From an uncultured Candidatus Saccharibacteria bacterium (GTDB lineage Bacteria; Patescibacteriota; Minisyncoccia; Phycocordibacterales; UBA918): DNA of 24,000 bases. The notes beneath the pieces were generated by a model. The model was not told where the DNA came from. It ran no database searches and was given only the letters and a program-made list of their open reading frames with translations. Made by a program: the position numbers and the translations under genes. Shown here piece by piece: positions 10,073 to 10,122 of the stretch (the stretch's first letter is position 1; each line of letters opens with the position of its first letter). The stretch is from the NCBI GenBank assembly GCA_964492305.1, contig CAZBJN010000002.1, forward strand, positions 279 through 24,278, written 5' to 3'.

Positions 10073-10122
10073 TTCAAATCTCTACGAAAGTGCCGCAGGG
10101 CACTTTCTCATCGCGCACATAG
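10073..10122 (+). other. Inverted, split fragment of the tRNA-Val 3' half interrupted by a 22-nt hairpin
   Basis: The plus strand reads TTCAAATCTCT (10073-10083) and TCTCATCGCGCACATAG (10106-10122). Both are identical to the sense sequence of tRNA-Val, whose gene is on the minus strand. They are separated by acgaaagtgccgcagggcactt. The hairpin at 10086-10107 reads GAAAGTGCC-CUGC-GGCACTTTC in minus sense. Confidence 0.7.

What the first reader, a model, noticed from the sequence alone, without database searches (positions are those of the whole stretch)
10073..10122. Inverted copy of the tRNA-Val 3' half, split by a 22-nt CUGC hairpin with a 3-nt TCT duplication
The plus strand carries TTCAAATCTCT and TCTCATCGCGCACATAG. 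Together that is 28 of 28 nt identical to the T-loop, acceptor 3' strand, discriminator and first trailer bases of tRNA-Val, whose gene lies 210 nt away on the other strand.

The two blocks overlap by TCT in the tRNA sequence and are separated by 22 nt carrying one of the 9-bp/CUGC hairpins. This looks like a small insertion with a target-site duplication. The TC-rich context weakens that inference.

In a minus-strand read-through transcript, this segment would be a 28-nt antisense to the tRNA-Val 3' half. That would be a longer version of the 12-nt arm pairing seen in every module.
Basis: partly seen in the sequence, partly recalled or inferred. Interest (0 to 1): 0.65.

Follow-up and report, generated by a model that had tools for sequence, protein, structure and literature searches.

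The report
Orphaned target-matching arm of mini-element
The inverted tRNA-Val fragment is the target-matching arm, with its built-in hairpin, of an older copy of a tiny protein-less insertion element that sits in the 3' ends of tRNA and other conserved genes in these ultra-small bacteria; the hairpin is a fixed part of the design, not a later insertion.

Summary
Window 10073-10083 and 10106-10122 are exact inverted copies of tRNA-Val positions 54-64 and 62-73 plus the trailer CATAG.

The segment belongs to an older element copy (E2, 9966-10122). A younger copy (E1, about 10132-10329) has pushed E2 away from tRNA-Val. In this 1.04-Mb Patescibacteria genome, about 25 of 31 tRNA genes, and also rplB, rplL and ftsZ, carry such elements.

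All copies fold the same way:
- An 11-13-nt guide pairs across the insertion junction.
- A terminator hairpin and a 9-bp/4-nt-loop hairpin branch off at a three-way junction.
- A spacer and a covarying body hairpin follow.
- A displaced copy of the gene end starts 3 nt inside the guide helix.

The hairpin splits the tRNA copy only because T-loop-targeting members need a second "zipper" block. The apparent TCT duplication is not a target-site duplication. Two of its bases are the foot of the stem, and that foot pair changes from G-C to A-T in a congener.

This scan has already found the family in at least 33 other genomes. I found no Rfam family and no paper that describes it.

The parts
10330..10402 (-). 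tRNA-Val(TAC) gene. Its 3' half (T54-A73 = 10349-10330) is the sequence copied in the finding.
   Evidence: ARAGORN; Rfam tRNA, 68.9 bits.
10322..10329 (-). Trailer CATAGGTA after tRNA-Val. Together with tRNA nt 70-73 it pairs with the E1 guide. CATAG also pairs with the older E2 arm.
   Evidence: pairs I8 and I3.
10281..10323 (.). E1 terminator-like hairpin (branch Y of the three-way junction). An A-run and a T-run flank it, so it reads as a terminator on either strand.
   Evidence: pair I4; folds.
10259..10280 (-). E1 small hairpin: GGAAGCAAA-CUGC-UUUGCUUCC (9 bp plus a 4-nt loop).
10246..10258 (-). E1 guide. It is antisense to tRNA-Val nt 70-73 plus the trailer (12-13 nt).
   Evidence: pair I8.
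10193..10245 (-). E1 spacer. A 3-bp clamp that covaries between copies (here GGC/GCC) and a G(G/C)A / GA internal loop enclose a variable hairpin.
   Evidence: The covariation of the clamp was read directly from the sequences.
10132..10192 (-). E1 body hairpin (ACTTACT/AGTTAGT variant).
   Evidence: nhmmer; CM R1, 83.4 bits.
10123..10131 (-). Nine nt (ACTATTAAT) between the E1 body and the E2 arm. This is what remains where E2's own trailer and terminator should be.
   Evidence: Comparison with G010, where the terminator is intact (L023), and with G018 (L036).
10108..10122 (-). E2 'zipper' block (A_R). On the minus strand it is antisense to tRNA-Val T64-A73 plus CATAG. It would zip the rebuilt tRNA end into the stem of the terminator hairpin.
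   Evidence: pair I3. The zipper role is inferred from the shared architecture.
10086..10107 (-). E2 small hairpin: GAAAGUGCC-CUGC-GGCACUUUC (9 bp plus a 4-nt loop).
   Evidence: z = -5.6. Same hairpin in G010 with a compensatory foot pair.
10073..10085 (-). E2 guide (10073-10083, antisense to tRNA-Val T54-T64) plus a 2-nt linker (10084-10085).
   Evidence: pair I10; geometry.
10041..10072 (-). E2 spacer (AGCCGCAGCGCUGCCGUAGGCAAGCGAGGCGU).
9978..10040 (-). E2 body hairpin (ACTTAGT/ACTTAGT type with a conserved T.T mismatch).
   Evidence: nhmmer; CM R1, 80.7 bits; covariation.
9966..9977 (-). E2 displaced target copy S2: AAATCTCTCATC = tRNA-Val A57-C68. It starts 3 nt inside the guide helix and has decayed beyond nt 68.
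   Evidence: repeat D6; offset rule.

Best explanation
The flagged 50 nt are the left-end folding region of E2. E2 is an older copy of a roughly 200-nt, protein-less insertion element family that lodges in the 3' ends of conserved genes.

Each element has these parts, in order on the gene's sense strand:
1. A replacement gene end and a terminator hairpin.
2. A 9-bp/4-nt-loop hairpin.
3. An 11-13-nt guide complementary to the 3 nt before and about 8 nt after the insertion junction.
4. A spacer and a covarying body hairpin.
5. The displaced original gene end (S2).

The guide, terminator hairpin and small hairpin form a three-way junction.

E2 targets the T-loop, with its junction after C56. It therefore has to carry tRNA nt 57-73. 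Of the two blocks in the finding, the 11-nt block is the guide proper. The 15-17-nt block is a zipper that folds the extra tRNA nucleotides into the terminator stem, so that the junction geometry stays the same as in elements that target the very end of the tRNA.

A younger end-targeting copy, E1, later inserted next to tRNA-Val. It cut E2 off from its partner strand and removed E2's terminator.

Shown here: the architecture, its conservation, patchy presence among relatives, copy-number variation, and the 3-nt junction rule.

Inferred: the folded sense strand, most likely as single-stranded DNA, is the substrate of a recombinase or transposase not yet identified, and guide-target base pairing sets the insertion site.
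For: Family context in G000:
- About 25 of 31 tRNA genes are followed by the same layout.
- The same layout follows rplB, rplL and ftsZ.
- There are 20-21 body copies in G000.

Geometry of the three-way junction over about 27 elements:
- Guide helix 10-13 bp.
- 0 nt before the terminator hairpin, 1 nt between the hairpins, about 2 nt before the guide.
- Small hairpin 9 bp in 20 elements and 10 bp in 3; loop CTGC in 12.
- The geometry is the same whether the helix starts at T54 (about 16 loci) or at nt 70-71 (9 loci).

Junction rule: S2 starts 3 nt (16 loci) or 4 nt (4 loci) after the first helix base, in 24 loci with a recognisable S2.

Body hairpin:
- 97.7% of cells are paired, against at most 44% with the partner slid.
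- 13 of 24 pairs show changes on both sides.
- One G.U is conserved (15 G.U, 5 A-U).

The sense strand folds better than the antisense strand: 72 against 33 G.U pairs, and summed MFE -1847 against -1685 kcal/mol.

Signs of mobility:
- At the tRNA-Val(TAC) locus of 29 relatives, about 15 carry an element and at least 11 have only a terminator.
- Copy number is 0-33 among 61 congeneric genomes.
- Tandem and nested copies occur.
- Displaced ends of ftsZ and rplL encode the same peptide with many synonymous differences.

E2 specifically:
- G010 has the homologous arm and hairpin directly after an intact terminator. Identity is 89% over window 10065-10121, against 73% in the flanking genes.
- G001 and G020 carry E1-like copies.
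- G018 shows the same young-proximal, old-distal nesting (L036).
Against: - No enzyme is linked to the element. G000 has no Y1 HUH, IS110 or TnpB gene. It has only one Xer-like tyrosine recombinase and one large serine recombinase.
- G010 has 18 copies and no Y1 gene.
- None of about 61 inspected copies carries an ORF.
- It is unexplained how guide, replacement gene end and zipper are all re-written when the element moves to a new gene.
- E2's arms are still 28/28 perfect although E2 is displaced. That could mean the arms have a function of their own, or are kept matched to the tRNA by gene conversion.
- Some members have no small hairpin (Tyr, Ala-GGC, Ala-TGC, L032, L045, L047), so it is not indispensable.
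Confidence: 0.6

Rival explanations
1. An originally continuous 25-nt inverted tRNA-Val fragment was later split by a mobile 22-nt hairpin that duplicated TCT. In minus-strand read-through RNA the fragment acts as an antisense to the tRNA-Val 3' half.
For: - The blocks are exact and TCT occurs on both sides.
- Members without the hairpin exist (Tyr, Ala, L032, L045, L047).
- Similar hairpin sequences recur in several elements, for example GGAAGCAAA-N4-TTTGCTTCC.
Against: - The hairpin sits at a fixed structural position in about 27 elements, whatever the target.
- The block overlap varies from 0 to 3 nt, with 0 the commonest value.
- 'TC' of TCT is the foot of the stem, and that foot pair is compensated as A-T in G010.
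- Hairpin-less members belong to a separate subfamily with a different terminator type.
- The terminator lies between the tRNA and the segment, and no promoter-like site serves it.
Confidence: 0.05
2. The units are host cis-acting RNA structures of the gene's transcript. They could be 3'-end processing or decay signals, tRNA-mimicking minihelices handled by RNase P or RNase Z, or termination insulators. The arms would serve to pair with the gene's own 3' end in RNA.
For: - Folding is better on the sense strand and one G.U is conserved.
- The spacer has a conserved G.A-rich internal loop.
- In T-loop types the hairpin branches opposite tRNA position 64|65, one base from where the tRNA body leaves the acceptor/T helix.
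- The targets are highly expressed genes (tRNA, tmRNA, rplB, rplL, rpsI, ftsZ).
Against: - The terminator hairpin lies inside the three-way junction. An RNA holding both strands of the guide helix must therefore have read through it, in either direction.
- The same geometry occurs at protein-gene ends, where no tRNA is mimicked.
- Presence is patchy at orthologous loci and copy number is 0-33 within one genus.
- There are tandem arrays and decaying displaced gene ends with synonymous recoding.
- No Rfam family matches.
Confidence: 0.15
3. The elements spread without an enzyme of their own. In naturally competent Patescibacteria they would spread by homologous or homology-facilitated recombination. 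The conserved gene would serve as the left arm and the duplicated gene end S2 as the right arm. The hairpins and arms would be passengers, or would stimulate recombination.
For: - In ftsZ and rplL, the rebuilt and displaced gene ends encode the same peptide but differ at many synonymous sites. This is as expected if the rebuilt end came from another lineage.
- No transposase is linked to the elements.
- The targets are among the most conserved genes.
- E2's arm and hairpin are more similar between G000 and G010 than the flanking genes are.
Against: - It does not explain movement between unrelated genes (more than 20 different targets in one genome).
- It does not explain the fixed 3-nt junction rule.
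- It does not explain the strict conservation and covariation of guide, hairpin, spacer and body.
Confidence: 0.15
4. The inverted copies are by-products of replication template switching at terminator hairpins (extension of quasi-palindromes). They are not functional parts.
For: - The zipper block directly extends the terminator palindrome, and it tracks the local trailer sequence: CTATG in G000 against TATAT in G010.
Against: - It does not account for the hairpin at a fixed distance, the guide block beyond it, the spacer/body modules or S2.
- Simple terminators at empty sites show no such extension (L029-L031, L040).
Confidence: 0.05

Closest known systems
IS200/IS605-family single-strand transposons (e.g. 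IS608) and their ORF-less derivatives (PATEs)
   Same: - No terminal inverted repeats.
- Hairpins of about 22 nt near the ends.
- Fixed orientation relative to one DNA strand.
- The cleavage site is defined by base pairing between an internal guide and the flank. This last point rests on established knowledge of IS608; here it is only inferred.
- In congener G201, an IS200/IS605 copy carries hairpins of the same format (9-bp stem, 4-nt loop) at its end.
   Different: - The guide is 11-13 nt rather than 4 nt. It lies 3' of the hairpins and spans the junction (3 nt of flank plus about 8 nt of element).
- The element duplicates and replaces the gene end.
- G000 and G010 have no Y1 transposase.
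- Twelve RAYT-like Y1 genes in congeners are flanked by other palindromes.
Integrative elements at tRNA/tmRNA 3' ends (prophages, islands) and integrase-less CIMEs
   Same: - Insertion in the T-loop or at the 3' end of tRNA and tmRNA genes.
- The gene is restored by an element-borne copy.
- A direct repeat of the gene end flanks the element.
- Tandem accretion occurs.
   Different: - About 200 nt with no gene.
- More than 20 different targets in one genome, including protein genes.
- An internal antisense copy of the target.
- The junction is fixed 3 nt inside the guide helix.
IS110/IS1111 elements with bridge RNA or seekRNA
   Same: Conceptually, a structured non-coding part carries segments complementary to the target, and these differ between copies aimed at different sites.
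   Different: - No DEDD/Transposase_20 gene in G000, and only 5 of 61 congeners have one, with no link to copy number.
- There is one guide rather than two two-part loops.
- The terminator lies inside the fold, which argues against an RNA.
REP/REPIN repeats mobilised by RAYT
   Same: - Short, abundant, hairpin-forming non-coding repeats.
- Y1 HUH genes are common in the genus (33 of 61 genomes). Genomes with one have more element copies: mean 12.0 against 4.9, Mann-Whitney p = 2e-5, not corrected for relatedness.
   Different: - REPINs are not gene-end specific, carry no target copy and carry no antisense guide.
- The inspected RAYT-like genes are flanked by unrelated palindromes.
Folded single-strand recombination sites (integron attC, CTX phage attP)
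   Same: A structure, rather than a sequence, is conserved. Conserved mismatches sit in a hairpin stem (a T.T in the symmetric ACTTAGT/ACTTAGT stem).
   Different: - Those sites recombine with one fixed partner site (attI or dif), using a known tyrosine recombinase.
- Here the targets differ from copy to copy and are matched by base pairing.

Membership tests
Gene-end-targeting folded mini-element family of Patescibacteria (undescribed; met repeatedly in this scan) | Lies directly 3' of a tRNA or conserved gene, in a fixed orientation, and carries an antisense segment matched to that gene's own end. | tested here: met
   Own-end specificity: 16 of 29 loci against 10 of 812 cross-pairings.
Gene-end-targeting folded mini-element family of Patescibacteria (undescribed; met repeatedly in this scan) | Conserved spacer and covarying body hairpin downstream of the antisense segment. 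| tested here: met
   E2 body 9978-10040 scores 80.7 bits with CM R1. Covariation.
Gene-end-targeting folded mini-element family of Patescibacteria (undescribed; met repeatedly in this scan) | A displaced sense copy of the gene end after the body, starting about 3 nt inside the guide helix. | tested here: met
   E2 S2 is 9966-9977 and starts at A57, while the guide helix starts at T54. The rule holds in 20 of 24 loci.
IS200/IS605 / PATE | Y1 HUH transposase (Pfam PF01797) encoded in the element, or at least in the genome. | tested here: not met
   None in G000 at E <= 0.1, in a MAG that is 96.7% complete. None in G010. Present in 33 of 61 congeners.
IS200/IS605 / PATE | A 4-5-nt target immediately 5' of the left end, recognised by a 4-nt guide at the foot of the hairpin, with no target duplication. 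| tested here: not met
   The guide is 11-13 nt, lies 3' of the hairpins and spans the junction. The gene end is duplicated.
IS200/IS605 / PATE | Subterminal hairpins, no terminal inverted repeats, strand-specific orientation. | tested here: met
   Of 40 bodies sampled in other genomes, 31 lie on the strand of, and downstream of, a tRNA or tmRNA gene.
tRNA-integrating islands / CIMEs | An integrase of its own, or a cognate integrase-bearing element that uses the same att core. | tested here: not met
   No ORF in about 61 copies. G000 has a single tyrosine recombinase and a single serine recombinase. There are more than 20 different 'cores'.
tRNA-integrating islands / CIMEs | Direct repeat of the tRNA 3' end flanking the insert, with the gene restored. 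| tested here: met
   repeat D6.
IS110/IS1111 (bridge RNA) | DEDD plus Transposase_20 recombinase. | tested here: not met
   (only a weak match to a RuvX-like ORF). (5 of 61 congeners).
MITE | Terminal inverted repeats and a short target-site duplication of fixed length. | tested here: not met
   The ends differ: a three-way junction at one end and the body hairpin at the other. The duplicated gene end ranges from about 3 to about 37 nt.
REP/REPIN-RAYT | A RAYT gene flanked by copies of the repeat. | tested here: not met
   Twelve RAYT-like genes were inspected. All are flanked by other palindromes, and none has an R1 match beside it.
Any Rfam 15 family | Match at the gathering score. | tested here: not met
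   Only tRNAs reach it. At E <= 5 there are only generic hairpin hits.
cis-antisense RNA to a tRNA | Transcription of the minus strand across 10073-10122. | not testable with these tools
The consensus scan finds no promoter-like site that would serve the segment.

The most novel reading that the evidence does not exclude
The family could be a natural insertion system that is retargeted by base pairing. An 11-13-nt guide held next to a fixed 9-bp hairpin in a three-way junction would set the strand-exchange point 3 nt inside the guide-target duplex. The element would bring a replacement gene end, so that essential genes survive. The catalyst would be an enzyme not yet recognised, or a host enzyme. 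This would be distinct from IS605 guides, IS110 bridge RNAs and integrases. In that reading the flagged segment shows the two separable roles, guide and zipper.
Probability: 0.35. Interest if true: 0.9.

Novelty: new variant of a known kind. Interest (0 to 1): 0.62.

Why it matters
If the reading is right, these elements show how a 200-nt piece of DNA with no gene can home to the ends of essential, conserved genes without harming them. They would also show that its target is written in a short, replaceable complementary segment.

That is of interest for three fields:
- Mobile-element biology: a possible guide-directed insertion mechanism.
- Genome evolution of the gene-poor Patescibacteria: up to 33 copies per roughly 1-Mb genome, and they break assemblies.
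- Annotation: the elements create tRNA fragments, pseudo-ends of ftsZ and ribosomal-protein genes, and apparent antisense elements.

For this particular finding, the practical result is that 'split inverted tRNA halves' in CPR genomes should be read as element arms. They are not tRNA pseudogenes, antisense regulators or hairpin insertions.

Tried and rejected
No transcription, excision or circle-junction test was possible.
- Literature: two full-text searches found nothing relevant.
- Rfam: nothing at the gathering score or at E <= 5.
- Viral contigs: a body pattern gave 11 hits, none confirmed by the body HMM and none near a tRNA, so they are chance matches.
- Genome contigs: my pattern GCGCGATGAN{1,31}GAGATTTGAA was too loose. 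About 130 chance matches are expected in 596 Gb, and more than 119 came back, mostly from unrelated phyla.
- Enzymes in G000: Y1_Tnp, IS110 and TnpB were not found. One Xer-like tyrosine recombinase and one large serine recombinase are present, with no link to the elements shown.
- Y1 HUH lead:
  - Y1 genes occur in 33 of 61 congeners and go with higher copy number.
  - The RAYT-like genes are flanked by their own palindromes.
  - The two canonical tnpA genes near element bodies belong to separate IS copies.
  - G000 and G010 have many elements and no Y1 gene.
  - The link stays a lead only.
- Search for an autonomous, ORF-carrying copy: 21 bodies in G000 and 40 in seven congeners were all canonical.
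- Ideas considered and dropped:
  - Hammerhead or another self-cleaving ribozyme at the three-way junction: no conserved core.
  - Kink-turn in the spacer: the loop is 3 x 2, not a k-turn.
  - RNase P external-guide mimic: no consistent RCCA after the guide.
  - dif-like Xer site in the body: resemblance too weak.
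Full report
OBSERVATION

The window holds tRNA-Val(TAC) on the minus strand at 10330-10402. On the plus strand:
- 10073-10083 (TTCAAATCTCT) is the exact reverse complement of 10339-10349.
- 10106-10122 (TCTCATCGCGCACATAG) is the exact reverse complement of 10325-10341 (pairs I10 and I3).

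In tRNA numbering the blocks copy T54-T64 and T62-A73 plus the trailer CATAG. Twenty-five distinct positions are copied; '28 of 28' counts TCT twice.

The intervening hairpin folds as a 9-bp stem with a 4-nt loop at 10086-10107 (DNA parameters: -9.6 kcal/mol, z = -5.6). It therefore includes T10106 and C10107.

WHAT SURROUNDS IT

The window is contig C2 of a 1.04-Mb, 102-contig genome that is 96.7% complete. I did not verify the name.

I printed the 330 nt downstream of all 31 tRNA genes. About 25 are followed, on the tRNA strand, by the same layout:
1. Trailer and an A/T-flanked terminator hairpin.
2. An antisense copy of the tRNA's own 3' end.
3. A spacer.
4. A long body hairpin.
5. A sense copy (S2) of the tRNA 3' part. 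Often another terminator follows and a second unit in tandem.

The antisense copy comes in three forms:
- A 12-13-nt block against nt 70-73 plus the trailer, in 9 loci.
- A copy running from the T-loop to the trailer and split by a hairpin, in about 14 loci including this one.
- The same long copy unsplit, in 3 loci (Tyr, Ala-GGC, Ala-TGC).

Matches are specific to the neighbouring tRNA. Sixteen of 29 loci have an exact antisense match of at least 9 nt to their own acceptor-plus-trailer 16-mer, against 10 of 812 cross-pairings.

The same units follow rplB, rplL and ftsZ in this genome. In congeners they follow ftsZ, an rpsI-like gene and tmRNA.

ONE ARCHITECTURE FOR ALL

I folded the gene end plus 105 nt for every locus and parsed the multiloop. 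About 27 elements give the same three-way junction:
- An outer helix of 10-13 bp between the gene strand and the guide.
- The terminator hairpin starts 0 nt after the gene strand of that helix.
- One unpaired nt follows.
- Then a small hairpin: 9-bp stem in 20 elements, 10 bp in 3; the loop is mostly 4 nt, and CTGC in 12.
- About 2 nt follow, usually containing GT.
- Then the guide.

The outer helix begins either at T54 (about 16 loci) or at nt 70-71 (9 loci). The geometry is identical in both cases.

S2 begins 3 nt (16 loci) or 4 nt (4 loci) after the first base of that helix, in 24 loci with a recognisable S2. Examples are TTC|GAATCC for the T-loop type, and CGC|AC, CGG|GAAG (rplB) and CTG|GAGC (rplL) elsewhere.

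This explains the split.
- When the junction lies in the T-loop, the element must carry nt 57-73.
- The guide covers only nt 54-64.
- The remaining gene end is folded into the terminator stem by a second complementary block.
- The small hairpin sits between the two blocks, opposite tRNA position 64|65 in every split arm.

In the finding, 10073-10083 is therefore the guide and 10108-10122 the zipper.

THE HAIRPIN IS NOT A SECONDARY INSERTION

- Among 14 split arms the overlap of the two blocks is 0 nt in 7, 1 nt in 4, 2 nt in 1 and 3 nt in 1 (this one), with one ambiguous.
- Congener G010 (locus L023) has a tRNA-Val 100% identical to this one. It carries the homologous arm directly behind an intact terminator...TTTTTTATATGCGCGATGA-AAAAGTGCC-CTGC-GGCACTTTT-GTAGAGATTTGAA....
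- That arm is 89% identical to window 10065-10121, while the flanking genes are 73% identical.
- Its stem foot is A-T where G000 has G10086-C10107. This is a compensatory change, so 'TC' of the supposed TCT repeat is stem. The true overlap is 1 nt in both genomes.
- Other tRNA-Val loci carry unrelated 9-10-bp hairpins at the same place (L026, L028, L039, L042, L048, and the second unit of L036).
- Members without the hairpin (L032, L045, L047, Tyr, Ala) share a different terminator type. They form a subfamily and are not empty sites.

WHY THIS COPY LOOKS ODD

Reading the minus strand away from tRNA-Val:
1. First comes a complete end-type element, E1 (10329 down to 10132): trailer, terminator, hairpin GGAAGCAAA-CUGC-UUUGCUUCC, 13-nt guide, spacer and body.
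2. Nine nt follow (ACTATTAAT).
3. Then comes E2, which has no terminator of its own: zipper, hairpin, guide, spacer, body (9978-10040) and S2 (9966-9977, AAATCTCTCATC, decayed beyond nt 68).

Comparisons with congeners:
- G010 has only the E2-type unit.
- G001 and G020 carry E1-like units (80% and 77% identity).
- G018 (L036) shows the same nesting, with part of the older terminator left.

I conclude that E1 inserted at the tRNA's discriminator and displaced E2. The flagged segment is an orphaned left end. Its partner strand, the tRNA 3' half, is now 200 nt away.

Its 28/28 perfection despite this is unexplained. It could reflect a recent E1 insertion, selection, or conversion against the tRNA. 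In G001 the corresponding older arm has decayed (L025).

MOBILITY AND STRUCTURE

- Of 29 relatives' tRNA-Val(TAC) loci, about 15 carry an element and at least 11 have only a plain terminator.
- The body hairpin covaries strongly: 97.7% of cells are paired, against at most 44% with the partner slid, and 13 of 24 pairs change on both sides. There is a conserved T.T mismatch in a symmetric ACTTAGT/ACTTAGT stem, with a compensated ACTTACT/AGTTAGT variant, and a conserved G.U (15 G.U, 5 A-U).
- A covariance model of this body subtype finds 20-21 copies in G000. It finds matches in only 3 of 151 genomes (G000 included) sampled across the phylum, and in 55 of 61 congeneric genomes, with 0-33 copies each. 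This body is a genus-level variant of a broader family.
- Whole elements fold better on the gene-sense strand: 72 against 33 G.U pairs, and summed MFE -1847 against -1685 kcal/mol.
- The terminator, A/T-flanked on both sides, lies inside the three-way junction. An RNA containing both strands of the guide helix would have to read through it in either direction. I take this as favouring single-stranded DNA over RNA as the folded form. This is an inference.
- At ftsZ and rplL the rebuilt end and S2 encode the same peptide (for example VPAFLRRSKLK*) with many synonymous differences. This fits replacement of the gene end by an element-borne copy from another lineage.

THE ENZYME

It was not found.
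- G000 has no Y1 HUH, IS110 or TnpB gene. It has one Xer-like tyrosine recombinase and one large serine recombinase.
- In the genus, Y1_Tnp genes occur in 33 of 61 genomes. These genomes have more element copies: mean 12.0 against 4.9, Mann-Whitney p = 2e-5, Spearman 0.54. Relatedness and general mobile-DNA load were not controlled.
- Five of the six zero-copy genomes lack Y1. However, G000 (21 copies) and G010 (18 copies, 99% complete) lack it too.
- Twelve RAYT-like Y1 genes of 200-240 aa are each flanked by their own 20-30-bp palindromes, not by this element's hairpins.
- Two canonical tnpA genes lie near bodies, but they belong to separate IS copies.
- One of these, in G201, sits exactly between tRNA-Leu and the element's terminator. 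Its end has 9-bp/4-nt-loop hairpins of the same format as the element's small hairpin. That is a hint, not a link.
- IS110-type genes occur in 5 of 61 genomes.
- None of 61 inspected bodies belongs to an ORF-carrying unit.

COMPARISON WITH KNOWN SYSTEMS

- The element works most like IS200/IS605 ends: hairpins plus guide-target pairing on one strand.
- It also resembles tRNA-integrating elements: the gene end is restored and duplicated.
- It fails defining features of both: no transposase or integrase, an 11-13-nt guide that spans the junction, and more than 20 targets.
- No Rfam family and no paper matched.
- Earlier follow-ups of this scan reached the same family-level reading on this window and in at least 33 other genomes. 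I used those notes as leads and re-derived the points cited here.

VERDICT

- The 'hairpin insertion with TSD' reading is rejected.
- The antisense-RNA reading is untested and unlikely.
- The segment is the guide, hairpin and zipper region of a displaced copy of an apparently undescribed family of gene-end-targeting mini-elements.
  - the unified three-way-junction geometry;
  - the guide/zipper distinction that explains the split;
  - the 3-nt junction rule;
  - the compensatory foot pair;
  - the nesting of E1 in front of E2;
  - the Y1 association, which remains inconclusive.

Noticed in passing
window 9809-9899 (minus strand, 5' of tRNA-Arg-TCT): A module of about 76 nt with two hairpins is bracketed by a direct repeat of the tRNA-Arg 5' end (TCAC[T/C]TGCCCCTGTA at 9809-9823 and 9885-9899). 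It carries GCAGGTG, antisense to the outer copy. It is conserved in relatives L036 and L050. It looks like a relative of the 3' elements that sits on the 5' side.
   Followed up: no
G000 C18:16660-16870 (rplB), C31:7520-7720 (rplL), C4:19400-19590 (ftsZ); relatives L239, L243, L250, L259 (ftsZ), L268 (rpsI-like): The same element family sits at the 3' ends of protein genes. The rebuilt end and the displaced end encode the same C-terminal peptide but differ at many synonymous sites. For example, ftsZ VPAFLRRSKLK* is written twice with different codons.
   Followed up: partly
L218-L229 (congeners G018, G211, G226, G020, G007, G016, G214, G209, G021, G002, G009, G220): Single-copy Y1 HUH genes of 200-240 aa (RAYT-like, with a PNHFHL motif) are each flanked on both sides by their own 20-30-bp palindromes, for example TCTTAGGGGTTTAACCCCTAAGA. 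These are unrelated to the element studied here.
   Followed up: partly
L232 2905-3545 (G201:C2): An IS200/IS605 copy (tnpA of 149 aa) is inserted exactly between tRNA-Leu(TAA) and the terminator of its 3' element. One IS end carries tandem hairpins with 9-bp stems and 4-nt loops (TTAG, TAGT), the same format as the element's small hairpin.
   Followed up: no
G000 contig ends C2:2-34, C59:4-36, C4:1-54: Several contigs of this MAG break inside element body hairpins. The repeat family fragments the assembly and may hide further copies or linked genes.
   Followed up: no
window 13810-14080 (downstream of tRNA-Leu-GAG): This unit has an extra body-like hairpin (GCAGCAGGTACTTAGTGCTCG...GAGAACACTTAGTAACCTGCGCC) between the spacer and the canonical body.
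   Followed up: no
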